From NCBI GenBank assembly GCA_023380475.1, contig JAMCRD010000003.1, positions 28,397-92,396 of the forward strand: 64,000 nt of DNA, written 5' to 3'. The stretch is from Patescibacteria group bacterium (GTDB lineage: Bacteria > Patescibacteriota > Minisyncoccia > UBA6257 > Colwellbacteraceae). The translations under genes and the position numbers were made by a program. Below, one piece after another: positions 2,929 through 64,000 of this stretch. Each line of letters opens with the position of its first letter. The first letter of the stretch is position 1. Below the pieces are notes generated by a model that searched no databases, was not told the DNA's origin, and saw nothing but the letters and a program-made list of their open reading frames with translations.

Positions 2929-3456
2929 ATGAGAGAACCTAGATTAACGGTAAAAGACGAGTTTAAAGACGAGACATTGGAAACAAGGCGTGTCACAAGG
3001 GTTATGGCTGGTGGGAAACGGTTCCGTTTTCGTTCGACTGTTGTTATCGGTGATATGAAAGGCAGAGTCGGTGTGGGCATTGGTAAAGGAGTCGATCTGC
3101 AGCAGTCCATTCAGAAGGCTAGGCATAATGCCAAGAAGAGCCTTATAAGTGTAGCTCTCAAAGAAAACACTATTCCTCACGAAACTTATGCCAAATTCAG
3201 CGCAGCCCGAGTTATCCTTAAACCCGCTCGTCTGGGGCATGGCTTGATGGCTGGAGGCGCTGTACGTATCGTCCTAAAGTTAGCTGGAATTCGTGATGCT
3301 ACAGCTAAATGTTTGGGTACTACCACTAATAAACTGACGACGGCTATGGCTACCATTAAAGCCCTTGAGTCTCTGAGTCTGCCTTACAGCAAGCTCTCAA
3401 ATGCAAAAGAAGGGTTGGTTGAATCGGCCAGCCAAGGTGATAAAGTGAAGGAATAA
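2929..3456 (+). CDS. rpsE: 30S ribosomal protein S5
   Basis: RRVTRVMAGGKRFRFRSTVVIGDMKGRVGVGIGKG shows the uS5 dsRBD and C-terminal domain pattern. Confidence 0.9.
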   Translation: MREPRLTVKDEFKDETLETRRVTRVMAGGKRFRFRSTVVIGDMKGRVGVGIGKGVDLQQSIQKARHNAKKSLISVALKENTIPHETYAKFSAARVILKPARLGHGLMAGGAVRIVLKLAGIRDATAKCLGTTTNKLTTAMATIKALESLSLPYSKLSNAKEGLVESASQGDKVKE

Positions 3457-3743
3457 TGCAGCTACATGATTTAAAACCTAGGCATGCCCGTTTTCTCAAG
3501 AAGCGTGTGGGTCGTGGCGGTAAGCGCGGGACTTTTTCTGGCAGAGGGACCAAGGGCCAGCGTGCTAGAGCTGGACATAAGATTCGTCCAGCCGAGCGAG
3601 ACTTTATCCAGCGCTTGCCTAAACTACGTGGTGTTGGCAATAGGACAAATGGTGTGAGCCAAGCCAGAGAGCTAATGCGGCAGCGTGCCAGACACCGTGC
3701 CTTGCGTATGGCTCGTAAGACCCCCCATGGAAAGAATTCTTAA
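3456..3743 (+). CDS. rplO: 50S ribosomal protein L15 (short, 95 aa)
   Basis: The N-terminus LKPRHARFLKKRVGRGGKRGTFSGRGTKGQ...RLPKLRGVG matches uL15. The C-terminal globular domain is absent, and it follows S5 directly with no L30 gene. Confidence 0.7.
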   Translation: MQLHDLKPRHARFLKKRVGRGGKRGTFSGRGTKGQRARAGHKIRPAERDFIQRLPKLRGVGNRTNGVSQARELMRQRARHRALRMARKTPHGKNS

Positions 3744-52719: not shown

Positions 52720-52872
52720 ATGGGTTTGCAGACGCTGATAAACAATGTGACATCCACCGCTGCTACCATAATTGGTCCGGCCAAAACTATTCTCGTGTCT
52801 GTAACTCAGATCATCGTACAGATATTGCAATACATTGTTTACCTTCTTAATTTACTGATATCTAAGCTATAG
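52720..52872 (+). CDS. small hydrophobic peptide (50 aa, hypothetical)
   Basis: MGLQTLINNVTSTAATIIGPAKTILVSVTQIIVQILQYIVYLLNLLISKL, followed by a terminator. It is not in the ORF track. Confidence 0.25.
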   Translation: MGLQTLINNVTSTAATIIGPAKTILVSVTQIIVQILQYIVYLLNLLISKL

Positions 52873-52940: not shown

Positions 52941-53618
52941 ATGTTCACTCCTATAAGGAAAGTAAACGGGATATCTTATGAAAGAATAGCTGTTAAGACA
53001 CATCTGATAAGATTCGGGGAAAATCTTATAGGACTCCTCAAAAAATATGTTTCACCTGTTTTGAAGCCGGGGGATTGGTTAGCACTTTCTGAAAAAGTTG
53101 TGTCGGTAACGCAAAACAATATCCGCCATATTTCGACTGTAAAAGTTAGTTGGCTAGCCAAATTGATTGTGAGGGGAGTGAAGAAATACCCCGATGACAA
53201 AGGATGGGACAATCCTGAGAAAATGCAGGTAGCAATAGAAATGGCTGGTTATCCAAGAGCTATCCTAGCAATGTTGCTCGGCGGCATCGGGAAGGTGTTC
53301 CATATCCGTGGCATCTTCTGGACTGTCTTAGGGCACCGCGCTGGAGAACTTGATGGCTTCAATCCAGTGGTTCTTCAACCGTATCGAGAAAACGTCGCTC
53401 TACCGCCATCGCATCCAAGAGAAATGTGCGAAAGGATTGAACGAGAATTGGGCGCACCGGCAGTGATCATAGACGGCAATAACATCAATGTTAAAGTCAT
53501 CGCGATGAGCCACGGCATGCCAGTAAACACTAAGTTCGCTAGATTGGTGCTCTTGGACAATCCCATGGGGCAGGAAGATGAACTAACCCCCTTCATAATT
53601 GTGCGTAAGAAAGATTAA
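52941..53618 (+). CDS. CofE-like (F420-0:gamma-glutamyl ligase family) protein, putative
   Basis: KPGDWLALSEKVVSVTQNN and IIDGNNINVKVIAMSHG resemble the CofE-fold pattern. The match is modest. Confidence 0.35.
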   Translation: MFTPIRKVNGISYERIAVKTHLIRFGENLIGLLKKYVSPVLKPGDWLALSEKVVSVTQNNIRHISTVKVSWLAKLIVRGVKKYPDDKGWDNPEKMQVAIEMAGYPRAILAMLLGGIGKVFHIRGIFWTVLGHRAGELDGFNPVVLQPYRENVALPPSHPREMCERIERELGAPAVIIDGNNINVKVIAMSHGMPVNTKFARLVLLDNPMGQEDELTPFIIVRKKD

Positions 53619-54226
53619 TGATAATCACCTGGGCCGGCGTAAAGCCTATTTTTGCCATTCTCAGTTTGATCACCACCTTATGGGCTGTACTCCCGTATCT
53701 ACGCGACATATTTCTCAAAAAGACGAAGCCCCATGCTTACACTTGGTTGATCTGGACCATAACCCAAGGCACTGCCGCCGCTGGATTGATATATGGCAAG
53801 GGAGGATGGGGAGGCTTAGAACTGGTTGTTGGTACGGCATTGGTATTCATAATATTTCTTCTGTCTCTAAAATATGGCACACGCAGTATAACTAAAAGTG
53901 ACACCGTGGTGCTCATATTCGCGCTGCTAGCGATTGTAATATGGTGGCAATTACATAACCCGTTCCTTGCCGTGATCATGGTGTCAGCCATAGATTTTGC
54001 CGGCTATATACCAAGTTTCAGAAAAACATTTTATGAACCATGGACCGAGACACCATCTTCTTGGGCAATATTCTCGTTGGGCAATATTTTAAACATACTT
54101 GCTCTCAGCCAATATAATTTCCTGACGCTTACTTATCTTATTACGATTATTATTGCTAACGCAGTACTCTTGGCGGTCTGTCTTATAAGGAGACAAGTTG
54201 TACTCCCTGACGCACCTACTAAATAG
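53618..54226 (+). CDS. polytopic membrane protein (hypothetical)
   Basis: A 202-aa protein with 6 TM helices. Its start overlaps the stop of the CofE-like gene (ATGA). Confidence 0.45.
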   Translation: MIITWAGVKPIFAILSLITTLWAVLPYLRDIFLKKTKPHAYTWLIWTITQGTAAAGLIYGKGGWGGLELVVGTALVFIIFLLSLKYGTRSITKSDTVVLIFALLAIVIWWQLHNPFLAVIMVSAIDFAGYIPSFRKTFYEPWTETPSSWAIFSLGNILNILALSQYNFLTLTYLITIIIANAVLLAVCLIRRQVVLPDAPTK

Positions 54227-54494
54227 GGGACTTATCTCAACAACCCATTCGGATTTTATATTTACGAAACTCCACGCAGATCTTTTCAGTTCAATTTACT
54301 TTTTCAGAATGTTATGTTGAGCTAACGTTGCTCATCCACATCGGCACGCCTCGCTGACTCTGCTAGAATAGCTACAGGGGAGCAGGTTAAGAACCTAATA
54401 TCAATCGTCGTATAATGGCTTTTATACGGCAAATTGCCCAAAAGAAAGCCACTTCTACTCCCCCCTAGGACAACTTAACACGAATATATGCCAT

Positions 54495-54520
54495 CCCGAC
54501 CTGAAAAGGTCGGGTTTCTT
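54495..54520 (+). terminator. terminator-like hairpin at the left edge of the phage region
   Basis: cccgacc-tgaaaa-ggtcggg followed by tttctt. Confidence 0.5.
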
Positions 54521-54545
54521 GGTTTAGAAAGGAAAAAACAATAAG

Positions 54546-54668
54546 ATGGATCGCAACAAAGTCAAGCAGCTAATCGGAGGGCTTACCTTCCTAGCTGCCT
54601 TTTTAATTCTTTCGTACGGTCTGCTGGTCGAGTTGGCAATTCTTAACGCAAGATGGTCTGTAAGATAA
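54546..54668 (+). CDS. small single-TM protein (40 aa; holin-like, speculative)
   Basis: MDRNKVKQLIGGLTFLAAFLILSYGLLVELAILNARWSVR, preceded by aaagga as an RBS. Confidence 0.25.
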   Translation: MDRNKVKQLIGGLTFLAAFLILSYGLLVELAILNARWSVR

Positions 54669-54895
54669 AGGAAAAGTCCAACCTGTGCATCCACGGCTAT
54701 ACCTATGGATATTGCCCAGGGGGGTGCACGCAGTTCGTCGATACAAGGGAATATCTCAAAGAAAAGCGCCGAGAGTTCCTGAAGTTATGGGGTCCCAAAG
54801 ACTGGACTGACCCTATGACCAAAAAAACAATTTGTCTCAGATTAGTTAATTACGACAGATTGATCCGGATGGCGCCAGGAGTCGAAGCAAATTAA
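54653..54895 (+). CDS. hypothetical Cys-containing small protein
   Basis: An 80-aa ORF carrying CIHGYTYGYCPGGC, with no recognisable family. Confidence 0.35.
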   Translation: MVCKIKEKSNLCIHGYTYGYCPGGCTQFVDTREYLKEKRREFLKLWGPKDWTDPMTKKTICLRLVNYDRLIRMAPGVEAN

Positions 54896-55019
54896 CAACG
54901 GTCTCAATCGGGAGGGATGCGATCCCCCTCTAAGCGCTTCATAAGAGTGCCGGGAAGACTAGGAAGTTTAATCGGAGACGGTTGGCTTCCTCTCTCCCGA
55001 TTACCAAGATTAAAAGCAA

Positions 55020-56012
55020 ATGAAAACATACACATACGAACCAACAAAACATCCTAGGCTCTTTCGCGTGGTAGACCGCGAGGGGAATTGGGAAAGGTAT
55101 TTCCTGACCGACCTTGTACCTGAAAAGGGCCGAGAAATATCGACCATGGGCGGAGTTTATCTTCGTGGCGTTACTACCATCCTTGATAAGGGATACGCCA
55201 AAGGAGAAGGTCTGTTACGCTTTCTGTCGCAGCATACCGAATCGGAAAGAGATGAGATCCTAAAGTCGGCTGGCGAGAGAGGTGACAAAGTTCACCGCGC
55301 TATTGCCATGCTCAGCGAAGGCTTAGGAACTCTCAACAAAACCGATGGGGTCTATAACCGTGAGATCAAAGAATACGAACCCTTGAGCAATGAGGAATGG
55401 GATTGTCTATTGGCTTTTGAGAGTTTTTGGAGAAGGCACGAACCGATAGTGTTGCAATCAGAAGCACCACTCTATTCGTTGGAAGGAGGGTACGCTGGGA
55501 CAGCCGATAAGATTTGGATCTTAACGAAAGCCTGTGATGTCAAGATGTGCCCTTGCAAGGACTGGATAAACCTCATCGGTCTGAACGATTACAAGACCAG
55601 TTCTGGTATTTACCCGAGCTACTGGGCTCAAGTCGGAGCCTACGCTAAAGCTGAGAACATCAAAGAGTATCTCCCAACGGGCAGAGTGATTGACTACACC
55701 TCGATCCTGCGGCTTGGCACAAACCACAAAACAACGGGAGGTTATGAGTTTCGGGTCAGCAACAGGCTCGGGGCTCAATATGAGTTGTTTGGGGCAGCCA
55801 AGACGATAGCCAACTATGAGAGCAATGAGTTCGATCCCTCCAAAGAGGTTCAAGAAATTCCTGATTCAATCACCATTGAATTGAAAAAGATGCCGGAGTC
55901 CGTCGAAACTCCCAAAGTCGAAAAGAAAAATGGAAAAGGTAAAAGAAATCAACCAAAAGCTGGGCGTAGTGCCAAAGCTAAGGCTGGGCACGCAGCAACC
56001 AGCCAAAAGTAA
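55020..56012 (+). CDS. RecB-family PD-(D/E)xK nuclease (phage-type exonuclease)
   Basis: GDKVHRAIA (motif I His), GTADKI (D), LNDYKTS (DxK) and QVGAYAKA (QxxxY). The C-terminal tail is K-rich. Confidence 0.55.
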   Translation: MKTYTYEPTKHPRLFRVVDREGNWERYFLTDLVPEKGREISTMGGVYLRGVTTILDKGYAKGEGLLRFLSQHTESERDEILKSAGERGDKVHRAIAMLSEGLGTLNKTDGVYNREIKEYEPLSNEEWDCLLAFESFWRRHEPIVLQSEAPLYSLEGGYAGTADKIWILTKACDVKMCPCKDWINLIGLNDYKTSSGIYPSYWAQVGAYAKAENIKEYLPTGRVIDYTSILRLGTNHKTTGGYEFRVSNRLGAQYELFGAAKTIANYESNEFDPSKEVQEIPDSITIELKKMPESVETPKVEKKNGKGKRNQPKAGRSAKAKAGHAATSQK

Positions 56013-56421
56013 GGACGGCAAGATCTACAACGCCATTGTTCCTAATGGTCCGCATCGATTAAAGTTTTTGGACGAACCAGTCGTCATTATAGCTAACATC
56101 AACGGTAAACCTGGGAAGGTCTTGAAATTCACAGTCGAAGAGAACGGCCAGAAGTTTCGTTGGATAGTAAAAATACTAAACGCCGAGGGACAGCCCAATT
56201 ATCTATTGGAACATCTTGAGCCTGTTATGGTCGGCGAGGAAAGAATAGTGGAGATGAAAAACAAGGGCGCTCGCAAGTTCATCGAGATCAGGAAGGTTGG
56301 AGAGGAATCAGCCTCGGAGGATGAAACCGATGAGATAGTCGATTACAAGGAGGATGAGGGATTGTCCGAAGACGAACTCAACGAGATGAGTCGCAGGGCC
56401 AAAGAAGATCTGAAAGAATGA
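55930..56421 (+). CDS. hypothetical phage protein with an acidic C-terminus
   Basis: A 163-aa ORF overlapping the nuclease gene by 83 nt in another frame. Its true start may be a downstream non-ATG codon. Confidence 0.35.
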   Translation: MEKVKEINQKLGVVPKLRLGTQQPAKSKDGKIYNAIVPNGPHRLKFLDEPVVIIANINGKPGKVLKFTVEENGQKFRWIVKILNAEGQPNYLLEHLEPVMVGEERIVEMKNKGARKFIEIRKVGEESASEDETDEIVDYKEDEGLSEDELNEMSRRAKEDLKE

Positions 56422-56603
56422 AAGCCTATCTCATACAAATTGAAGTGCGTCTTTCCTCCAAATCATATTTTCAGACACTGGGAGAGTCGCGACAGAATTG
56501 CAGCTCAGCGGAGACCGCCTCCAGTAGGGCTTTGAGAGAACTCAGACATGAATTGAAAGGTCGGAGGATAGCCGAGTACAAGATCCATATCACCAAGTGC
56601 TAG
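56418..56603 (+). CDS. hypothetical small protein
   Basis: A 61-aa ORF with an ATGA overlap with the upstream gene. Confidence 0.25.
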   Translation: MKAYLIQIEVRLSSKSYFQTLGESRQNCSSAETASSRALRELRHELKGRRIAEYKIHITKC

Positions 56604-56702
56604 TTATCTGACTGGGGCGTCCGGGCCAGATTAAGATCAACACTCCAAGTATCTCGATCTCATCGGCGTCTTGGTCAAGGAGAATAAGCAAAAGGGGAAG
56701 CG

Positions 56703-57185
56703 ATGTACTACATAAATATATCAAACGGTCTGCTTAAAGATTCCCACCGTACAAGGATGGGAGAGGCTATTTGGGAGTTCATGTGGTTATTGGATCGTAT
56801 GACTAGCGAGAGCGAGGATGGCATAGGGAAAGTCTTGGGGGGCAGGCCGATAAAGATTGATGAAATAGCCTGTGGATTTCCTGTGCATAGGACAACGGTG
56901 ATCCGCAATCTCAAACGCTTGGAGAATGAAGGATACATCAACGTTATTCGGGCTCCTTACGGATTAGTGATAACTGTGAATAAAGCCAAGAAAAAGCTAG
57001 TGAGAGATGTTGCGAGTTTGCACAGAGATATAGCGGATACGCAACATCTAATTAGATATAGCAAAGACGCAACATCTAATAATACTAAACACTACTTAAC
57101 AAAGACTAAACAGTCGGCACGCCCTGCGGGCGTCGATGTTAAACCCCTTGAAGGCGTAAGAGGGGGAGGATTAAGGCATATATGA
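56703..57185 (+). CDS. winged helix-turn-helix DNA-binding protein (phage regulator or replication-organiser-like)
   Basis: GFPVHRTTVIRNLKRLENEGYINVIR is a classic wHTH, followed by a basic tail. Confidence 0.5.
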   Translation: MYYINISNGLLKDSHRTRMGEAIWEFMWLLDRMTSESEDGIGKVLGGRPIKIDEIACGFPVHRTTVIRNLKRLENEGYINVIRAPYGLVITVNKAKKKLVRDVASLHRDIADTQHLIRYSKDATSNNTKHYLTKTKQSARPAGVDVKPLEGVRGGGLRHI

Positions 57186-57279
57186 ACCAAATGCCCGAAA
57201 AATACGTTACGGGCAGTTAACAAAACTCTAGGCGGTTCGTCGATGCCGATTAATCAAGAATCAAAAGTCAAAAAACAAA

Positions 57280-57756
57280 ATGAACAAAAACGACATAAAC
57301 AACAACTGGGTAGAAATAGGATACAAGCAAATCCCCCAAAAGGTTTTCGACAAATACGGAGTCAAGCCGTTCGAGATAATGAAACGGAAGATGCGCAAAA
57401 AAGAGGGTCAAGTCTGGAACCTCATCTCTTACAATGACGCCAAAGAAGAAGCCGAGCGACGGGGCTGCCGTCTTCCCTCCGTTCAGGAGATGCTGGTACT
57501 GCTCGAATGGTACAAGCACGAGAAGGGGAACAAGGCGAATATCAGAGACAATCAATTTCTGGGCATAGAGGAGCTTTCATATAAGGAGTTTGTCTATCTG
57601 GAATGGGTGGAAGGACTAATTCCGTACCTTCGCGGTGGCGATTGGGGTAATGGCTCGGGTGGTGGGCCGTTCACGTTGAACCTGGATTGGGGCGCGGGCA
57701 CTACGAGCACCTATGTGGGTTTCCGCTGTGCCCGCAGCCGTAGAAATCCGAAATAA
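57280..57756 (+). CDS. FGE-sulfatase (SUMF1-like) domain protein, short form
   Basis: GCRLPSVQEMLVLLEW resembles RLPTEAEWEYA. YLRGGDWGNG and the C-terminal VGFRCARS are the family hallmark. Confidence 0.5.
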   Translation: MNKNDINNNWVEIGYKQIPQKVFDKYGVKPFEIMKRKMRKKEGQVWNLISYNDAKEEAERRGCRLPSVQEMLVLLEWYKHEKGNKANIRDNQFLGIEELSYKEFVYLEWVEGLIPYLRGGDWGNGSGGGPFTLNLDWGAGTTSTYVGFRCARSRRNPK

Positions 57757-57763
57757 AACGAAG

Positions 57764-58153
57764 ATGGAGCTTAAATTGACCCAACACGACATAATCAGGA
57801 ACTACCTCGACGGGAAGGGATGGGTGTACGAGTACAAAATCCGAGGGCTGGACACCGAGTGGGGCTTCATCGGGGCCAGAGGGGACAGGGACGTAAGGCA
57901 GATGATAAGGAACGGGGAACTGGAAGCCTCCTTTAACGGCAAATACCGAATAGTCAGATTGAAAAGGTCGCCGAGTCCAAGAGAACTAGCGGATGAACTC
58001 AACCAAGAAATTGAGGAGAAAGGCGGACAGGTTGTGGCAGATAAAATGCCAAGCCCTATCAAAGAGGTGTCTGGTATGCGGACGGCCGACGCAGGTATGC
58101 CATCACTTTTTCCCGAAGAGCATAGCGGCATCTCTTCGCTACGACATTTCTAA
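57764..58153 (+). CDS. hypothetical phage protein
   Basis: MELKLTQHDIIRNYLDGKGWVYEYKIRGLDTEWGF... It overlaps the HNH gene by 160 nt in another frame. Confidence 0.3.
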   Translation: MELKLTQHDIIRNYLDGKGWVYEYKIRGLDTEWGFIGARGDRDVRQMIRNGELEASFNGKYRIVRLKRSPSPRELADELNQEIEEKGGQVVADKMPSPIKEVSGMRTADAGMPSLFPEEHSGISSLRHF

Positions 58154-58370
58154 CGGCGTTCCGTTATGCAACGTTTGCCATTTCAAGCTGCACAACGGAG
58201 ACCCCACCGTGGGGGCGAAGATACTGGAATTGAGGGGAGCAAAATGGCTGGAGGGATTGGAAGAGCGGCGCAAGGGGAAGGTCAGACCGACGGTGGGATA
58301 TTTCGAGAAAGTCATCGCCGACCTGTCTAACGAGACTGACGAGAAACAAAGAAAGGACAAAGAAAAATGA
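57993..58370 (+). CDS. HNH endonuclease
   Basis: CLVCGRPTQVCHHFFPKS...NGVPLCNVCHFKLH is a CxxC...HH...N...CxxC...H HNH Zn-finger nuclease motif. Confidence 0.65.
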   Translation: MNSTKKLRRKADRLWQIKCQALSKRCLVCGRPTQVCHHFFPKSIAASLRYDISNGVPLCNVCHFKLHNGDPTVGAKILELRGAKWLEGLEERRKGKVRPTVGYFEKVIADLSNETDEKQRKDKEK

Positions 58371-58522
58371 AACAAAAAATGAAGAGGCTCACGGTGTGGG
58401 TAACGACGGAGAATCTGAAGCAGCTCGCCAAACTCGCCAGGGAGTCCAACAAGTCTCGGGTAATCAGGGGTTTAATCGTAAAGGCCGCAGGTGGGGGTTC
58501 CCAGTCGGAAAAGGTACGGTAA
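58367..58522 (+). CDS. ribbon-helix-helix (CopG/Arc-like) small DNA-binding protein
   Basis: MKQKMKRLTVWVTTENLKQLAKLARESNKSRVIRGLI follows the beta-alpha-alpha RHH pattern. Its ATG overlaps the HNH stop (ATGA). It is not in the ORF track. Confidence 0.45.
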   Translation: MKQKMKRLTVWVTTENLKQLAKLARESNKSRVIRGLIVKAAGGGSQSEKVR

Positions 58523-58562
58523 AGACAAAAACAAAAGAGATGGACGATAATAAATTAGAAAA

Positions 58563-59009
58563 ATGAGGCAAATTAAATCAGCATTGGGAGAAGTATTGAA
58601 ACTCCTCAACAAGTCCTATAAAGATCAGGAAATCCGTGTTTGCGACAACTGTGGAGTCCCATTGATATGGACTTTTTGTTGGGCGTATCGCGAGAGATAC
58701 TGTCTCAACTGTGGGATAAGTGGCGCAATGCTGGGGACTGGCGAAGATGTGGAATTAACCAGCGAATTGAAGTATGAGGCAAGGGTGATAGATGACATCT
58801 GGAAAGCAATCTACAAAAATCTAGTGCCGCGTTCATCTTACAAACGGAATGGATGTAAGAAGTGTGAGGGAGAAGATCATAACAAACACCTCTCAAGGTC
58901 CGAAATTTTTAGAGATAAAACAGCGACGGAAATTCTCAAAAAATTAGCGGAGGGCTTCACCGTTAAAAGAGAAATTTTAGAAAGAGGATTATATCAGGGA
59001 CAAGTTTAG
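58563..59009 (+). CDS. zinc-ribbon hypothetical phage protein
   Basis: CDNCG...CLNCG plus CKKCEGEDH suggest two Zn-binding knuckles. Confidence 0.35.
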   Translation: MRQIKSALGEVLKLLNKSYKDQEIRVCDNCGVPLIWTFCWAYRERYCLNCGISGAMLGTGEDVELTSELKYEARVIDDIWKAIYKNLVPRSSYKRNGCKKCEGEDHNKHLSRSEIFRDKTATEILKKLAEGFTVKREILERGLYQGQV

Positions 59010-59042
59010 GAACTGTCCGGAAAACATAATTAAGCCGAAAGG

Positions 59043-59249
59043 ATGGTAAAAACCGTTTACGGCATGAAATCTAAAATGACCGACCAAGAGTTCAAGGAAA
59101 AATGTGAGAAACATAGGGAAAAGCTTAAGGTGCTATTGAACTCCGGCTTCTTTGAGCTCAAAAATACCAAGGTCGAGGTGAACTTCGGGCCAAAGGGAGA
59201 GATAGGGGATTGGTCTATTGTCCGGCAGAGTGTGTACAAACGACCATGA
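59043..59249 (+). CDS. hypothetical small protein
   Basis: A 68-aa ORF with no motif. Confidence 0.25.
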   Translation: MVKTVYGMKSKMTDQEFKEKCEKHREKLKVLLNSGFFELKNTKVEVNFGPKGEIGDWSIVRQSVYKRP

Positions 59250-59340
59250 ATATGCTATAATACTCAAAACTGAATAAGTAAAAGTCCCAAGCGATAATAA
59301 GCCGGACATCTCGCAATGAGGTGGCCGGTATTTCATTTTT

Positions 59341-59778
59341 ATGGGAGCACCAAAGGGAAATCAATACGCAAAAGGAAATAAGGGAGGGCGCCCTCCGAAA
59401 GTAGAGCCGCAAAATCTTCCCGCGTTCGGTGAAGAACTGGTGTCATGGGCAACTCGGAAATACCAGACGCTTCTTTCGGCGCCCGACAAGGAGGCAAAAA
59501 TGCCCTTCTTCATCAAGACGTTCTGTCGGGAGTATAAAATATCGGAAGACACGCTCCAAGCGTACAGGGAGGCAAATAAAGAGTTTTCCGCCTCGTATAA
59601 GCAGGCAAGACAGATTATTGCTGAAGCACTCATGGTTGGAGCACTCAAGGGATGGTGGCATCCGACCGCTTTTATCTTCATCGCCAAGAATGAAACCGAA
59701 ATGAGAGATAACTCGTCGGTTGATCTCACATCGGGCGGAGAAAAGATTACGGTCAACCTGGTCGAATTCAAAAGATGA
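59341..59778 (+). CDS. terminase small subunit
   Basis: MGAPKGNQYAKGNKGGRPPK is an N-terminal signature common to phage TerS HTH domains. It sits upstream of terL. Confidence 0.55.
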   Translation: MGAPKGNQYAKGNKGGRPPKVEPQNLPAFGEELVSWATRKYQTLLSAPDKEAKMPFFIKTFCREYKISEDTLQAYREANKEFSASYKQARQIIAEALMVGALKGWWHPTAFIFIAKNETEMRDNSSVDLTSGGEKITVNLVEFKR

Positions 59779-60314
59779 AACTCTCGGTTTTAATCTGTTC
59801 TTTGTCTTCACGAGGCGAGCATCTCGCCAAGTTGCTTTCGATCTTGTTTCCCCAAATTCAGGAGGAGACTGAAATTATCGTTTCCATTGACGACGGAGGA
59901 CAAAAAATAGGTGTCAAACGCAATAGGTTGATGGCATCGGCACTGGGCCAGTATGTCTGTTTTATCGATGACGATGACGAGGTGAGCGACGACTATATTG
60001 CCCAGATTATGACCGGCATCGAATCCGGTGCCGACCACGTGGCAATAGGCGGCATTATGACGACGAATGGCAGAGAACCACACGAATTCAGAAGCTCGAA
60101 GGATTATGTCTGGCATGAAAAAGACGGCGTCTATTATCGCGGCGTCCAGCATCTGGGAGTGATTAAGCGTGATCTGGTACTTCAATGTCCCTTCCCTCCG
60201 ATCAGTTTCGGGGAAGACCGCGAATTCAGCGAGAGGGTAACGCCGCTAATCAAGACAGAGTACCAAATCCAAAAGCCGATTTACTTCTATCGATACCGGA
60301 ACCCGAAATGCTGA
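59775..60314 (+). CDS. family 2 glycosyltransferase (short, 179 aa)
   Basis: LSVLICSL...EIIVSIDDGGQ...YVCFIDDDDEV shows the GT-A fold with a DxD motif. Confidence 0.6.
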   Translation: MKLSVLICSLSSRGEHLAKLLSILFPQIQEETEIIVSIDDGGQKIGVKRNRLMASALGQYVCFIDDDDEVSDDYIAQIMTGIESGADHVAIGGIMTTNGREPHEFRSSKDYVWHEKDGVYYRGVQHLGVIKRDLVLQCPFPPISFGEDREFSERVTPLIKTEYQIQKPIYFYRYRNPKC

Positions 60315-60964
60315 GTGTCATAATGCCGGTCTATAATCACGTTCTCTACACCTATCGGGCCGTAGAGTCGCTCCTTGAACACACTGCTGCGCCAGCTAGG
60401 CTCATTATGATTGACGATGGCTCGACCGATGATACGCATGATTACGCTATGGAACTTTCGGATCGGCTGAAAGAGAGATTTTATTATGGCCGAAACCAAA
60501 AGAATGAGGGTGTCCACTACAGCTGGAATGCAGGACTACGCGCCGCTTTCGACCAGAATTCAGATTATATCGCCATTGTGAATAACGATGTCCTCTTCAC
60601 AAAGAACTGGGATTCGCCCCTCATCAATGCCCTAAAAACGAAGAAGCTTGTGAGTCCATATCATACGGATGGCTCATTGCCGGATGATTGGCCGTCCGGG
60701 AGCCGCAGGATTGCGAACCAGGGTAACTTGCCGATTCTGGGCGCTTGTTTCATGGCACAAACGCAGACATTCAGGGATGTGGGCTTTTTCCCCGAACAAA
60801 TGCGGTACTACTTCGGAGACAACTGGCTGGTGCGACAGGTCGGGGAACAGCAATGTACCCAGGTGCCCGAAAGCTACATCCATCACTATTTCTCGAAAAC
60901 AACGAGTGAACTTCAGAATGATTTTTGGTTCAAAAAAGACCAAGAAGAATACTTGCGGCTATGA
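60308..60964 (+). CDS. family 2 glycosyltransferase
   Basis: MLSVIMPVYNHVLYT...LIMIDDGSTDDT...YIAIVNNDVLF. Its ATG overlaps the upstream stop, and its own stop overlaps the terL ATG. Confidence 0.65.
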   Translation: MLSVIMPVYNHVLYTYRAVESLLEHTAAPARLIMIDDGSTDDTHDYAMELSDRLKERFYYGRNQKNEGVHYSWNAGLRAAFDQNSDYIAIVNNDVLFTKNWDSPLINALKTKKLVSPYHTDGSLPDDWPSGSRRIANQGNLPILGACFMAQTQTFRDVGFFPEQMRYYFGDNWLVRQVGEQQCTQVPESYIHHYFSKTTSELQNDFWFKKDQEEYLRL

Positions 60965-62241
60965 CAATTCAATTCCCCACCCAAGAATTTATCGACTCTA
61001 TACGACCTTACCAATCCGAGTACCTTTCGTCTCCCCAGAAGAATAACGTGCTTATGTGGCACAGAGGCAGCCGCAAGACCACGACACTGCTCCAAAAATT
61101 GCTTATTTCAGCGCATCGCGAGGTTGGTCTCTACTGGTATATCGGGCCCTATCTTACCCAGGCGCGATCGACGATATGGACAGACCCAGCAACGCATATT
61201 TTCCGATGGATACCATCGGACTATCTGAAGCGGTTACGCGTCAATAACAGCGAGATGTCGATAACATTCCCGAACGGAAGCGTCTTGCAGGCCAAGGGAA
61301 TGGACAATCCGAATGGACTCCGTGGCCCTAAACCGAAGGGGGTTGTGCTCGACGAATACGGTGAAATGGCGAAGCGGTGGGGCAGCGAACCTCGTGAAGC
61401 CATCATTGAGCCGTCCATGCTCTCGTCGGGGGGCTGGACTGACTACGCGGGGACGCCGAAAGGAAACAATGATCTTGCGCACCTTTTACGGCGGCAGGAT
61501 TATTTCGCGTCTCTCAAAACAGTCGAAGATACGGGTGTGTATTTGCCGGAGCAGATTGAGGAATTGAAGCGGAATGCCGTCAATATAGATTTCTTTTGGC
61601 AAGAATACTACTGCAAAATCATCGAGGGAGCCTCAAGCGTTTTCAAAGACATCGAGAATGCCGTCTCGGGAGAACTGGAGAAGCCGCAGAGTGGCGAGGA
61701 GTATCTTTTTGGAATTGATTTAGCGCGGAGTTTTGACGCGACTGTCCTCGTCGGTTTCAAAATATCCACCAATCATCTCGTGTACTACGAGAGGATAAAA
61801 GATAGAACGTGGGAAGCGCAGAAAAACCTCATCGCCGGTACGCTCGCTTCGTACCATGGCGCGCGGGCTATTGTTGACGCAACGGGTGTGGGCGATAGTT
61901 TCACAGAAGAGTTGATGAGGATGGGACTCAATATCATGCCTCTTAAGATCGCCAATAACCTCATTAAGCGGAATCTGGTCGAAAAACTCGGTTCTTACCT
62001 TGAAAACAGATACATCACCATTCCCAGCATTCAAGAAATGATTGACGAATTGAAAAATTACGAGTATGTGCTTACGGCAAGTAACAATATCGTTTACTCG
62101 GCCCCATCCGGCAAGCACGACGATGTCGTAATGGCGTTGGCGCTGGCAGTTTCAGCTCTCAATCCCACGCCTTTCGTTGTTTCCCAAAATGCTTTTGTTC
62201 CGCCGGTTACTATCGACCCCAGAACGGGTTATATTGTATGA
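60961..62241 (+). CDS. terminase large subunit
   Basis: Walker A-like HRGSRKTTTL and Walker B VVLDEYGE sit in the ATPase domain. The nuclease domain carries FGIDLA...DDVVMALALA. Confidence 0.7.
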   Translation: MTIQFPTQEFIDSIRPYQSEYLSSPQKNNVLMWHRGSRKTTTLLQKLLISAHREVGLYWYIGPYLTQARSTIWTDPATHIFRWIPSDYLKRLRVNNSEMSITFPNGSVLQAKGMDNPNGLRGPKPKGVVLDEYGEMAKRWGSEPREAIIEPSMLSSGGWTDYAGTPKGNNDLAHLLRRQDYFASLKTVEDTGVYLPEQIEELKRNAVNIDFFWQEYYCKIIEGASSVFKDIENAVSGELEKPQSGEEYLFGIDLARSFDATVLVGFKISTNHLVYYERIKDRTWEAQKNLIAGTLASYHGARAIVDATGVGDSFTEELMRMGLNIMPLKIANNLIKRNLVEKLGSYLENRYITIPSIQEMIDELKNYEYVLTASNNIVYSAPSGKHDDVVMALALAVSALNPTPFVVSQNAFVPPVTIDPRTGYIV

Positions 62242-62432
62242 ACGAAGAACTACGTTGCAAATTATGCGGTAAATTGTTGGGCAAGGGATTGCAGTTAGGG
62301 GGCATTGTAGCCATCAAGTGCCATCGGTGCGGTACCATCACGGAGTTCGGGAATAAAATCGTCCACTATATCGTTCGTACCGAAGCGGGCGAGGAGTTAG
62401 GGCTCTTGACACTGAAAAATAAAAAGATATAA
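62238..62432 (+). CDS. Mu Com-like zinc-finger protein
   Basis: LRCKLCGKLLGKG...IKCHRCGT parallels Mu Com (IRCKNCNKLL...IRCPRCK). It has an ATGA overlap with the terL stop. Confidence 0.6.
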   Translation: MNEELRCKLCGKLLGKGLQLGGIVAIKCHRCGTITEFGNKIVHYIVRTEAGEELGLLTLKNKKI

Positions 62433-62433
62433 T
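62406..62433 (+). promoter_or_regulatory. consensus sigma70 promoter TTGACA-N16-TATAAT
   Basis: cTTGACActgaaaaataaaaagaTATAATga has a -10 box overlapping the com-like stop codon. Confidence 0.5.
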
Positions 62434-62468
62434 GACAATATAAAATAATAAGTTTTGAGTGCCTTTGA

Positions 62469-62491
62469 GCGCCAGAAGTGGCGCTTTTTTT
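62469..62491 (+). terminator. rho-independent terminator hairpin in the leader of the portal gene
   Basis: gcgcca-gaag-tggcgc followed by ttttttt. The T-tract runs into the portal ATG at 62489. Confidence 0.65.
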
Positions 62492-64000
62492 GTTGTATGA
62501 AAAAACCATCGGCACAAGAAATACTCAATCAATTTCGCATCGAGAAACAGGCAGCCTCGAAGACTCGGCAGTCGAAGATGTCCCATTGGCTCCAAAATGA
62601 GGAGCTTCACAATGGCGTTATTCAGCGAACTCTTTTGACGAAATCAAATCTTCATGTCCCGAAAGTGTTTGAGGGGGTACAAGATATGGCGTCCCGTCTC
62701 GGGGAGTTACCGACTATCGAATACGACACAAAGCCGGAAGGCGATGAAAATGCAGCAGATCTCATGAAGCATCTGTTCTTGTATGACGGCAGGAAATCAG
62801 ATTTGGAACACTTATGGGAACTGTCAAAAATCGAAGCGGGTCTCTATGGGCGTCCCATTTACAAACTGTTTCCATCACCGAACGGCGTCGCTTTCCAGCT
62901 TATCGATACGATGAGTTTTCTCATTTCTCCGCTTTCGCCGACGATAGATTCCGCGCTTTATTGCGGTCAGCAATTCATCTATAAGACGGCAGCGCAGCTG
63001 ATGGAGGAGGCCGAAGAATACGGTTACGACAAGAAAGAGGTGATGAAGGCTCGCAAAGCCGTGGCCGAAACCATCTCATCGGAAAATCCGGAAGTGAGCC
63101 AGCGCAACCTGCGGCTTGCCTATCTCGGTTTTGACAATGTGAACCTCGCAGGAGCGAAAGTCATCGAACTCACGGAATGGTACACGCATCTTGTGAACGA
63201 AAAGGGGTTGCCGGAAAAATATCTTCTCACCGTCGCGAACGACCAGTTCCTGCTTCGCGCCATTCCGATAACTGAAGCGGGGTTTGAGGATAAATTCCCG
63301 TTTATTTCGCGGGCGCTTTTCCCGCGTCTCGTCTCGTTCTGGGTTCCGTCAGTCGCGGATATCTATCGCGATCCGAACTTGGCGATGGATGTGATTATGA
63401 ATCAGAACATCGACAATAATACCTACCGCAATTTCGGGATGCTCTTTGTCGATTCGGCCAGCGGTCTCAAGCAATCCGCTGTCGTTCCGCGCCCCCTCGG
63501 CGTTGTACCGATCAATGTCGGAGCGAAATCGGTTAAGGACGCCGTGCTGCCATATAATCCGCCGGATATTTCGCAATCTACCGCCTTATCCAGCCAGATT
63601 GAAACGCTCTCTGACAATGCGGCCGGTCTCGGTTTCGTGCTTCCCATGGGACGGGCAAAAATGTCGGTCTCCCAATTAAACCTCGAAATGTCGCTCATTG
63701 AACAGCGATTAAGCACGTCAAAGATGAACCTCATCGCGATGGCAAAGGATATGGGCCAGATGTACGCCGATCTCATCAAGAAGAACCTTACGACTCCCCG
63801 GGCAGTCAAAACCTTCGGCATGAAAGACCTCACTATCTCAGGAGTTACGAAAGCGAACTTTAAGGGCGTTGACTTCATTGCAAAGGCGACTGCGAAGGAG
63901 AATGTCCAGCAAAACAAGGCGCTCTGGCAGAAATCAATTCAGGCTCTCTTCGCGATGTTCAAGGACGACCAGAACATCCCCAATCAGCGCTATCTCCGCG
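62489..64000 (+). CDS. probable portal protein (5' partial view; ORF continues past the window end)
   Basis: At least 504 codons are open from the ATG at 62489, in frame through base 64000. It lies immediately downstream of terL/com. The assignment is positional. Confidence 0.4.

What the first reader, a model, noticed from the sequence alone, without database searches (positions are those of the whole stretch)
54230..64000. Phage or prophage module with an HNH-TerS-TerL-Com-portal backbone in an apparently Patescibacteria-like genome
Right after a host membrane-protein gene (end 54226) and a hairpin at 54495-54520, gene content switches to co-directional phage functions. These are a RecB-family nuclease, a wHTH protein, an FGE-domain protein, an HNH endonuclease, an RHH protein, TerS (GNQYAKGNKGGRP), TerL (Walker A/B plus a DDVVMALA nuclease), a Com-like Zn finger and a long ORF in portal position. 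The host backbone looks reduced (no L30, truncated L15 and TF, minimal ProRS). Phages of such reduced-genome lineages are very poorly characterised. Neither an integrase nor att repeats fall in the window, so integrated versus episomal status is open.
Basis: partly seen in the sequence, partly recalled or inferred. Interest (0 to 1): 0.7.

Follow-up and report, generated by a model that had tools for sequence, protein, structure and literature searches.

The report
Integrated podophage in a Patescibacteria genome
The last 9.6 kb of the window is the left third of an intact-looking 29.5-kb prophage inserted by an integrase just upstream of murC in a tiny-genome (Patescibacteria) bacterium, and its late genes seem to be switched on by a Mu Com-like zinc-finger protein acting on three copies of an RNA hairpin element.

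Summary
From about 54.4 kb the window switches to co-directional phage genes. HMMs support the exonuclease, DnaD-like protein, HNH, TerS, TerL, Com-like zinc ribbon and portal. The portal is also supported by an AlphaFold model whose best PDB match is the phage SU10 portal. The FGE and RHH calls are weak, and two GT2 glycosyltransferases between TerS and TerL were missed.

Extending the sequence with identical public contigs settles the open question. This is an integrated prophage of 29,547 bp. An 11-bp core, GTCGTATAATG, lies at 54407-54417 (attL) and again 29.5 kb downstream (attR). A tyrosine integrase sits beside attR, and murC follows it. A related Saccharibacteria genome has the uninterrupted attB upstream of murC. 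The host is Patescibacteria.

A new point: a promoter, a GAGUGCC-N2-4-GAGCGCC box and a terminator hairpin occur three times. The copies precede the portal, adaptor and putative lysis operons. The element co-occurs perfectly with the Com-like gene in relatives. It matches the published Com RNA-binding motif, which suggests Com-dependent read-through.

Patescibacteria prophages are already reported. The phage itself is therefore a new member of a known kind, and the regulatory element is a new variant.

The parts
54407..54417 (.). attL core GTCGTATAATG. It contains a TATAAT and is the left boundary of the prophage. The dyad CGTATAA-N6-TTATACG spans 54409-54428.
   Evidence: The same 11-mer occurs at attR (composite 83954-83964). 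The empty site in L006 shares AATC plus the core with attL, and the core plus 20 nt to the right with attR.
54495..54514 (+). Terminator-like hairpin in the phage P' arm. In the circular phage it would follow int and attP.
54653..54895 (+). 80-aa Cys-rich ORF of unknown function
   Evidence: No Pfam or PHROG hit.
55020..56012 (+). PD-(D/E)XK (RecB/Cas4-like) exonuclease
   Evidence: phrog_298, 4.6e-19. D...DYK...QxxxY motifs are visible in the translation.
55969..56421 (+). 150-aa protein with an acidic C-terminal tail. Function unknown; SSB-like is only a guess.
   Evidence: No HMM hit.
56703..57185 (+). wHTH / DnaD-like replication organiser
   Evidence: phrog_7498, 2.5e-25. Pfam HTH hits are below cut-off.
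57280..57756 (+). 158-aa protein with an FGE-sulfatase-like C-terminal motif (weak)
   Evidence: PF03781, E 0.0059, below cut-off. phrog_2889, 1.5e-7.
57764..58153 (+). 129-aa ORF of unknown function. It overlaps the HNH ORF by 160 nt.
57993..58370 (+). HNH endonuclease
   Evidence: PF01844, 1.7e-6, above cut-off. Twelve PHROG HNH/NinG families also hit.
58379..58522 (+). 47-aa putative RHH protein (unverified)
   Evidence: No HMM hit.
58563..59009 (+). 148-aa CxxC-rich protein of unknown function
   Evidence: No HMM hit.
59341..59778 (+). Small terminase subunit
   Evidence: phrog_606, 4.5e-9. PF16677, 6.9e-5, below cut-off.
59775..60314 (+). GT2 glycosyltransferase (moron slot)
   Evidence: PF00535, 5.7e-9. 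phrog_8858, 8.5e-35.
60323..60964 (+). Second GT2 glycosyltransferase
   Evidence: PF00535, 1.8e-22. Gene call.
60961..62241 (+). Large terminase subunit
   Evidence: PF17289 and PF03237 above cut-off. phrog_2, 7.4e-34. PDB 5tge/5m1f, 1e-23.
62238..62432 (+). Com-like CCCC zinc-ribbon protein (64 aa), proposed RNA-binding regulator of the three cassettes
   Evidence: PF10122, 27.2 bits, above cut-off. All 7 orthologues hit it, best 8.4e-12.
62406..62433 (+). Perfect sigma-70-type promoter TTGACA-16-TATAAT of cassette 1, inside the 3' end of the Com-like ORF
   Evidence: 12/12 match. Conserved in relatives.
62457..62496 (+). Cassette 1 RNA element. It comprises GAGTGCC-TTT-GAGCGCC (a bipartite Com-type motif), the hairpin 62467-62486 and a T-run ending one base before the portal ATG.
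62497..64000 (+). Portal protein. It runs on to composite 64212 and is 571 aa.
   Evidence: PF23899, 3.8e-15. AF2 plus Foldseek match the SU10 portal at 2.9e-15.

Best explanation
Window 54407-64000 is the left end of a 29,547-bp temperate tailed phage. It is podovirus-like, with an SU10-type portal and adaptor and an HK97-fold capsid protein. It is integrated in the chromosome of a Saccharibacteria-related Patescibacteria bacterium.

Integration. A phage tyrosine integrase at the far right end recombined an 11-bp core, GTCGTATAATG. The core lies within a dyad-symmetric site immediately upstream of murC.

Gene order from attL:
- small ORFs
- recombination/replication module (PD-(D/E)XK exonuclease, DnaD-like protein)
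- HNH
- TerS, two GT2 glycosyltransferases (a variable moron slot), TerL, Com-like zinc ribbon
- portal, scaffold-like protein, capsid, connector and fibre genes
- adaptor, then 507-aa, 325-aa and 1308-aa virion proteins
- two minus-strand genes
- ATP-grasp-like protein and a C1 peptidase with a PG-binding domain (probable lysin)
- integrase, then attR

Inferred control of late genes. Three late transcription units start with the same cassette. They are the portal/head unit, the adaptor/tail unit, and the ATP-grasp/lysin unit. Each cassette has a sigma-70-type promoter, a short A-rich leader, the box GAGUGCC-N2-4-GAGCGCC, and a GC-rich hairpin with a U-run that ends 5-15 nt before the start codon.

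By default the hairpin terminates transcription, occludes the start region, or both. The Com-like protein is made from the preceding TerS-TerL operon. It is proposed to bind the CC(N)2-4GAG loop of a weak alternative hairpin. That hairpin uses the 5' arm of the terminator, so binding would allow read-through and translation of the late operons.

Shown: gene identities, boundaries, att sites, the empty site, the three cassettes and their co-occurrence with Com. Inferred: that the prophage is inducible, and that Com binds the cassettes and acts by anti-termination.
For: Extension and identity.
- The exact TerL lies on Logan contig SRR10278331_26449. That contig is identical to the window over 13,040 nt.
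- NCBI contig SCLI03000438.1 overlaps it with 0 mismatches and carries the rest of the phage.

Structural module.
- MCP: phrog_1357, 2e-50.
- Gp80 fibre-like protein and Laminin_G_3.
- The adaptor is 75% identical to a protein that passes PF24175.
- Portal fold matches SU10, VP1, N4 and T7 portals.

Integration.
- Integrase: PF00589, 8.2e-18; phrog_1, 1.4e-25.
- The core 11-mer is present at both ends.
- Relative L006 has GluRS, a peptidase, then murC, a 253-aa gene and bPH_2, with an intact attB. Its left 15 nt equal attL. From the core onward it is identical to attR for 31 nt and stays homologous into murC (score 186 against a null of 17).

Host. NCBI naming and the nearest GluRS loci, and no L30.

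Family. At least 138 portal and 194 TerL relatives, many on 27-39 kb contigs. One TerL relative is on contigs longer than 1 Mb.

Cassette.
- Three copies here, at the same positions in relatives.
- The covariance model finds only these, plus two new ones in L164 and L165, in 343 kb. None is in host DNA or in Com-less phages.
- The Com HMM hits only cassette-bearing phages.
- The Com-less relative L161 has the normal terminator-then-promoter order.
- SELEX for Com gave a bipartite GAG(N)2CC motif and a CC(N)2-3GAG loop (PMC6483171).
- The regex hits only the 3 cassettes in 91.8 kb, against 0.49 expected.
- The alternative hairpin has the same geometry as the Mu mom target.
- The motif is about 70-fold enriched next to Com-like genes in 79 IMG/VR loci.
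Against: Prophage.
- No repressor or excisionase was identified.
- No read-depth data or attP junction reads are available, so activity is untested.
- The left flank of attB is not conserved between this genome and L006. The empty site is therefore anchored mainly on the murC side plus 15 nt.

Cassette.
- The hairpin stems are nearly invariant. Covariation support is limited to a few G-U/G-C changes.
- The element could act at the DNA level.
- The scan tool did not flag copy 3 as a terminator.
- Com family membership rests on a short zinc-ribbon HMM. Other zinc-ribbon families also match weakly.
- No Com-RNA binding has been shown for this protein.
Confidence: 0.85

Rival explanations
1. The three cassettes are ordinary punctuation or DNA operators. 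They would be late promoters plus terminators, or binding sites for a DNA-binding repressor or activator on the repeats GAGYGCC / GAGCGCC / GGCGCTC. The Com-like protein would be unrelated to them.
For: - The stem sequence is conserved rather than merely complementary.
- Three half-sites spaced about one helical turn apart could fit a DNA-binding oligomer.
- No direct evidence of RNA binding exists.
Against: - The order is always promoter then hairpin, which is the wrong way round for simple punctuation. The Com-less relative L161 uses terminator then promoter at the same junction.
- Loop length and sequence vary from 4 to 6 nt, and G-U pairs are tolerated.
- A U-run follows every copy.
- Co-occurrence with Com is perfect.
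- The motif equals the experimentally selected Com RNA motif.
- The motif is enriched next to Com genes in unrelated phages.
Confidence: 0.3
2. The element is a defective or domesticated prophage remnant that no longer forms infectious particles.
For: - No repressor or excisionase was recognised.
- The HNH ORF overlaps its upstream ORF by 160 nt, which may reflect a frameshift.
- No induction or coverage data are available.
Against: - All modules are present with uninterrupted ORFs from attL to attR.
- The att cores are identical, 11 of 11.
- Relatives with 75-97% amino-acid identity occur in other samples and in IMG/VR viral contigs.
Confidence: 0.1
3. The host-phage junction is an assembly chimera, and the phage is really free or belongs to another host.
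For: MAG contigs can be chimeric. The window itself ends inside the phage.
Against: - Two assemblies agree base for base across attL, and one crosses attR into murC.
- NCBI holds portal M1295_01430 and peptidase M1295_01530 on one 120,197-nt contig.
- The junctions carry the B-O-P' / P-O-B' signature relative to an independent genome.
Confidence: 0.02

Closest known systems
Bacteriophage Mu Com-mom translational control (Com zinc finger, PF10122)
   Same: - It is a small CCCC zinc-ribbon protein encoded immediately upstream of its RNA target.
- The target contains GAG(N)2CC boxes and a CC(N)3GAG loop on a 4-bp stem.
- The target overlaps an inhibitory hairpin next to a start codon (PMC6483171).
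   Different: - Here there are three targets per genome, not one.
- They precede the virion and lysis operons, not a DNA-modification gene.
- The inhibitory hairpin is a promoter-proximal intrinsic terminator with a U-run, not only a translation-inhibition structure.
- Binding is untested.
Lambda PR'-tR' / Q late-gene antitermination
   Same: A strong constitutive-looking late promoter is followed within tens of nucleotides by a terminator. The regulator gene sits directly upstream, and late structural genes lie downstream.
   Different: - No Q homologue is present.
- The proposed regulator is a 64-aa RNA-binding zinc ribbon.
- The conserved element lies in the transcript rather than in promoter DNA.
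- There are three such units rather than one.
SU10 (Kuravirus)-type and other podophages; Bacillus megaterium podophages Page, Pony and Pascal
   Same: - Portal fold: SU10 7z44, E 2.9e-15.
- SU10-type adaptor, shown through a 75%-identical relative.
- Gp80 fibre-like domain.
- MCP is about 32% identical to Pascal and Pony.
- No tape-measure, tube or sheath protein was found.
   Different: - TerL is at most 30% and MCP about 32% identical to any GenBank phage.
- The genome is smaller, at 29.5 kb.
- The phage is temperate.
- The host is from another phylum.
Prophages reported in Patescibacteria/CPR MAG surveys (e.g. PMC12455944)
   Same: These are integrated tailed-phage genomes in ultra-small genomes. 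Some carry glycosyltransferase genes.
   Different: - Those are Paceibacteria prophages of about 44 kb predicted by pipelines.
- Here the att core, the empty site and the integrase are defined at base resolution.
- This lineage is Saccharibacteria-related.

Membership tests
Integrated temperate tailed phage (Caudoviricetes prophage) | Terminase large subunit with ATPase and RNaseH-like nuclease domains | tested here: met
   PF03237 and PF17289 above cut-off. PDB TerL nuclease, 1e-23.
Integrated temperate tailed phage (Caudoviricetes prophage) | Portal protein | tested here: met
   PF23899, 55.8 bits. The AF2 model matches SU10, VP1, N4 and T7 portals with probability 1.0.
Integrated temperate tailed phage (Caudoviricetes prophage) | HK97-fold major capsid protein | tested here: met
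   phrog_1357, 2e-50, and PF25209. The gene lies outside the window at composite 65237-66214.
Integrated temperate tailed phage (Caudoviricetes prophage) | Integrase, flanking direct repeats (attL/attR) and an empty attB in a relative | tested here: met
   PF00589, 8.2e-18. An 11-bp core is present at both ends. L006 carries attB upstream of murC.
Integrated temperate tailed phage (Caudoviricetes prophage) | Excision, induction and particle formation | not testable with these tools
   No reads or cultures are available.
Mu Com family (PF10122) RNA-binding regulators | N-terminal CCCC zinc ribbon matching the family HMM above the gathering score | tested here: met
   27.2 bits against 22.9. All 7 orthologues match, best 8.4e-12. 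The four Cys are invariant.
Mu Com family (PF10122) RNA-binding regulators | Cognate RNA site with GAG(N)2CC / CC(N)2-3GAG next to the regulated start | tested here: met
   Three sites in the prophage, which are the only such sites in 91.8 kb. The hairpin geometry equals that of Mu mom.
Mu Com family (PF10122) RNA-binding regulators | Regulated gene is mom or a DNA-modification gene directly downstream | tested here: not met
   The downstream genes are the portal, the adaptor and an ATP-grasp-like gene.
Mu Com family (PF10122) RNA-binding regulators | Demonstrated RNA binding and activation | not testable with these tools
   This needs EMSA, SHAPE or reporter assays.
Lambda Q-type late antitermination | Promoter-proximal terminator in front of late genes | tested here: met
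Lambda Q-type late antitermination | Q-family antiterminator protein | tested here: not met
   No Q family appeared among the Pfam or PHROG hits of any prophage ORF.
Patescibacteria (CPR) host | Ribosomal protein L30 absent between S5 and L15; taxonomic naming and nearest relatives | tested here: met
   S5 stops and L15 starts at 3456. NCBI name. GluRS is 75-80% identical to Saccharibacteria MAGs.

The most novel reading that the evidence does not exclude
A Com-type zinc-ribbon protein is the master late switch of a widespread lineage of Patescibacteria podophages. It would act as an RNA-binding anti-terminator (and translational activator) at three promoter-proximal terminators that gate the head, tail and lysis operons. 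Com proteins are so far known only as translational activators of a single DNA-modification gene. This would therefore be a new mode of phage late-gene control, and the first regulatory circuit defined for a CPR phage.
Probability: 0.4. Interest if true: 0.7.

Novelty: new variant of a known kind. Interest (0 to 1): 0.55.

Why it matters
Phages of Patescibacteria are known almost only from pipeline predictions. This report gives one at base resolution: its ends, attachment site, integrase and a complete gene map. It also places the phage in a family of more than 100 relatives, some sitting in genomes of about 1 Mb. That provides a concrete lysogen-phage pair, and an attB sequence, for anyone trying to detect induction or build genetic tools for these uncultivated episymbionts.

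The three-copy Com-box/terminator cassette yields a small and directly testable hypothesis for how the late genes are timed. The test needs only a 64-aa protein and a 35-nt RNA. If confirmed, it would extend the Com-RNA paradigm beyond mom.

The two glycosyltransferases in a variable slot are candidates for lysogenic conversion of the cell surface. That surface is central to the episymbiotic lifestyle.

Tried and rejected
- Genome-contig scan with the 507-aa tail protein found nothing. The source genome is not a GTDB representative.
- Exact look-up of TerL with the TTG start at 60925 failed. The ATG at 60961 is the called start.
- I first thought the phage carries a copy of the murC leader upstream of the core. 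This was rejected: local alignments of the 200 nt upstream of attL, attR and attB score at the shuffle mean.
- No arm-type repeats were found in the reconstructed attP.
- The att dyad pattern in IMG/VR gave 8 unrelated contigs with no integrase or relatives, so it is a common palindrome.
- Integrase relatives in IMG/VR: none.
- Rfam found nothing at attB, attR or the cassettes.
- PDB sequence searches with the portal, singly and as a profile, and with the MCP found nothing. Fold search was needed instead.
- The 14-base cassette pattern in IMG/VR was swamped by chance matches. Only L090 (= L025) was real among 120.
- The first covariance model, R1, was built with a mis-registered structure and was discarded for R2.
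- An outer stem GUGCC...GGCAC around copies 2 and 3 is not conserved in other relatives, so it is not part of the model.
- tblastn of the Com-like protein against GenBank phages found no match.


Full report
**1. Observation**

ORF listing and HMM scans confirm a change in gene content after the membrane-protein gene that ends at 54226. All substantial genes from there on are on the + strand and are phage-like.

| Coordinates | Assignment | Support |
|---|---|---|
| 55020-56012 | PD-(D/E)XK exonuclease | phrog_298, 4.6e-19 |
| 56703-57185 | wHTH / DnaD-like protein | phrog_7498, 2.5e-25 |
| 57993-58370 | HNH | PF01844 above cut-off |
| 59341-59778 | TerS | phrog_606, 4.5e-9 |
| 60961-62241 | TerL | Terminase_6N and 6C above cut-off; phrog_2, 7e-34; PDB Thermus-phage TerL nuclease, 1e-23 |
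| 62238-62432 | Com zinc ribbon | PF10122, 27.2 bits against 22.9 |
| 62497 to window end | portal | PF23899 SU10_portal, 55.8 bits against 30 |

The open frame that runs off the window starts at ATG 62497.

An AlphaFold model was built on 30 homologues (pLDDT 71.5, pTM 0.64). Its best solved-structure matches are the portals of SU10 (7z44, E 2.9e-15), VP1, Pan3, Pa223, N4, T7 and P22.

- The FGE call is below the Pfam cut-off.
- The RHH call has no HMM support.
- Two GT2 glycosyltransferase genes (59775-60314 and 60323-60964) sit between TerS and TerL and were not mentioned.

**2. Extending the sequence**

The exact TerL protein is on Logan contig SRR10278331_26449 (34 kb). That contig is identical to the window over 13,040 nt and continues 8.2 kb further. 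A tail protein from that extension led to NCBI contig SCLI03000438.1, from assembly GCA_004028595.3, with 0 mismatches in the overlaps. From these I built a 91.8-kb composite in continued window coordinates.

NCBI names the identical portal (M1295_01430) and peptidase (M1295_01530) as 'Patescibacteria group bacterium' proteins. Both are on one 120,197-nt contig.

Genes beyond the window, in composite coordinates:
- rest of the portal, to 64212
- a 109-aa protein
- a 219-aa scaffold-position protein
- major capsid protein, 65237-66214 (phrog_1357, 2e-50)
- small connector-position ORFs
- a Gp80 fibre-like protein
- a Laminin_G_3 protein
- a K1-lyase_C-like protein
- an adaptor, 70620-71369. It is 75% identical to a relative that passes PF24175 SU10_adaptor.
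- 507-aa, 325-aa and 1308-aa proteins
- two minus-strand genes, one with a PG_binding_1 domain
- an ATP-grasp-like protein
- a 98-aa protein
- a Peptidase_C1 plus PG-binding protein, a likely lysin
- two small ORFs
- a tyrosine integrase, 82730-83575 (PF00589, 8.2e-18; phrog_1, 1.4e-25)

No tape-measure, tube or sheath protein was found. Together with the portal and adaptor type, this points to a podovirus-like virion.

**3. Integration**

After the integrase and a 55-aa ORF come murC-like, 253-aa and bPH_2 genes.

A related genome, L006 (annotated 'Candidatus Saccharibacteria', GluRS 75% identical), is colinear with the window for 10 kb up to GluRS. It then has a peptidase, two small genes, and the same murC / 253-aa / bPH_2 trio with no phage.

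The only 11-mer shared by the two junction intergenic regions is GTCGTATAATG, at 54407 and 83954. L006 carries ...AATC-GTCGTATAATG-TATGTTATACGACATATATA... 29 nt upstream of murC. Its left 15 nt equal attL. From the core onward it is identical to attR for 31 nt and stays homologous into murC, with a local score of 186 against a shuffle mean of 17. This is the B-O-P' / P-O-B' pattern of site-specific integration.

The prophage is 29,547 bp long. The core contains a TATAAT and lies in a CGTATAA-N6-TTATACG dyad. At attL it forms a promoter-like site, TTAAGA-18-TATAAT, that now faces the prophage.

Two ideas did not survive testing. An apparent similarity upstream of the core failed a shuffle test. 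No arm-type repeats were found.

**4. Host**

- S5 ends and L15 begins at 3456, with no L30 gene between them. L15 is only 95 aa.
- The closest GluRS loci are Saccharibacteria or Colwellbacteria MAGs at 74-80% identity.
- GC content does not change across the junction.

**5. Relatives**

- Close relatives with 70-97% amino-acid identity occur in other assemblies and in IMG/VR.
- At least 138 portal and 194 TerL homologues exist. Many are on contigs of 27-39 kb. One TerL relative, at 60% identity, is on contigs longer than 1 Mb.
- No GenBank phage exceeds 30% identity for TerL or 34% for MCP.
- The TerS-TerL interval is a variable slot. It holds GT2 x 2 here and in L161 and L165, and other genes in L023 and L025.

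**6. A repeated regulatory cassette**

The promoter scan found a perfect TTGACA-16-TATAAT at 62406-62433, inside the end of the Com-like ORF. A terminator-like hairpin follows at 62467-62486, and its T-run ends one base before the portal ATG. This interval is conserved in five relatives.

The box GAGTGCC-N2-4-GAGCGCC occurs three times in the prophage:

| Copy | Box position (composite) | Gene that follows |
|---|---|---|
| 1 | 62457 | portal |
| 2 | 70576 | adaptor |
| 3 | 79082 | ATP-grasp-like gene |

Each copy lies after a promoter-like site, and the hairpin and U-run lie directly in front of the gene start. The same positions carry the element in L003, L022 and L023.

Tests of specificity and of the link to Com:
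- A covariance model searched over 343 kb finds only these sites, plus two new ones in L164 and L165. It finds none in 54 kb of host DNA, in host relatives, or in Com-less phages.
- An HMM of the Com-like proteins hits exactly the cassette-bearing phages.
- L161 has a portal 82% identical and carries the same GT2 pair. It lacks both Com and the cassettes, and it has the ordinary terminator-then-promoter order in the TerL-portal gap.

Published SELEX with a Com zinc finger gave GAG(N)2CC, mostly as a bipartite pair. It also defined CC(N)2-3GAG in a hairpin loop as the recognition element. The Mu mom site is GAAUGCCUGCGAGCAUCC (PMC6483171). The cassette box is that same motif.
- The regex GAG..CC.{2,5}GAG..CC hits only the three cassettes in 91.8 kb on both strands, against 0.49 expected.
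- The box can form a 4-bp, 6-nt-loop hairpin with the same geometry as the Mu target. That hairpin (-3.9 kcal/mol) uses the 5' arm of the terminator (-11 to -17 kcal/mol).
- In 79 IMG/VR loci with Com-like genes, the motif occurs 22 times in the 31.8 kb from com to +300 nt. It occurs 9 times in the other 898 kb. In the Mu-like loci it is followed by an SD and an ATG, without a terminator.

My inference is as follows. Com binding stabilises the alternative hairpin and relieves termination, occlusion of the start region, or both, at three late operons. I put this at about 0.55.

Caveats: covariation is minimal because the stems are nearly invariant, and binding has not been tested.

**7. Verdict**

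The finding is real and correctly interpreted. I resolve it as an integrated, apparently complete temperate podophage of a Saccharibacteria-related bacterium. Prophages in Patescibacteria are already reported (PMC12455944), so the phage as such is a new member of a known kind. The multi-copy, terminator-fused Com cassette is a new variant of a known regulatory system and is the most testable lead.

Noticed in passing
window 57713-58370: The HNH ORF (57993-58370) overlaps the preceding 129/146-aa ORF (ending 58153) by 160 nt in another frame. The Logan gene caller did not call the HNH ORF at all. This could be a genuine overlap, a frameshift or a sequencing error.
   Followed up: no
L028 end = composite 83983 (attR core starts at 83954): The Logan contig stops exactly 30 nt (k-1 for k=31) after the first base of the attR core. 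That is what a de Bruijn graph does if another sequence in the sample shares the attB right half. The 31 nt from the core onward are identical in L006. This hints at an unoccupied or related attB in the same community.
   Followed up: partly
window 59775-60964; L025 1266-1649; L023 2639-3197; L161 7172-8370; L165 255-896: The interval between TerS and TerL is a variable cargo slot. It holds two GT2 glycosyltransferases here and in L161 (L165 begins inside the slot and shows one GT2). L025 has a 127-aa gene there, whose homologue in this phage sits near the lysin. L023 has unrelated small genes.
   Followed up: partly
window 54409-54428; L006 14344-14363; L029-L036: The att dyad GTCGTATAA-N6-TTATACGAC is a perfect palindrome containing TATAAT. 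It also occurs in 8 unrelated IMG/VR contigs, so it may be a common operator or promoter motif rather than a phage-specific site.
   Followed up: partly
window 2929-3743: S5 is followed directly by a 95-aa L15 whose 3' end overlaps the SecY ORF. There is no L30 gene.
   Followed up: partly
L037, L038 (P0021 TerL, 60% identical): A sister lineage has TerL abutting the portal, with no Com gene and no cassette. It is found on 23 contigs, including several longer than 1 Mb. These are probably prophages in complete genomes of about 1 Mb.
   Followed up: partly
composite 77828-79019 (L027 7033-8224, minus strand): The only two minus-strand genes of the prophage are a 54-aa ORF and a 329-aa protein with a PG_binding_1 domain and a coiled coil. 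They diverge from cassette 3 and are candidates for genes expressed in the lysogen.
   Followed up: no
L236 102-150; L213 931; L211/L212 about +345 nt after com: Other IMG/VR phages with Com-like genes also carry the bipartite box fused to a hairpin and T-run, away from the com gene. An example in L236 is GAGCGCCTTTGAGCGCC...GGCGCTATTTTTATG. Terminator-fused Com boxes may therefore not be confined to this clade.
   Followed up: no
window 55000-60000: The early region is strongly purine-rich on the coding strand. AT skew is 0.20-0.26 and GC skew 0.13-0.18, higher than anywhere else in the window.
   Followed up: no
window 52720-52872 and L004 12637-12876: A small hydrophobic ORF after the C39-peptidase gene is conserved between this genome and the closest Saccharibacteria relative. 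The next two genes here, CofE-like 52941-53618 and the membrane protein 53618-54226, are absent from the stretch of L004 and L006 downstream of GluRS that was fetched.
   Followed up: no
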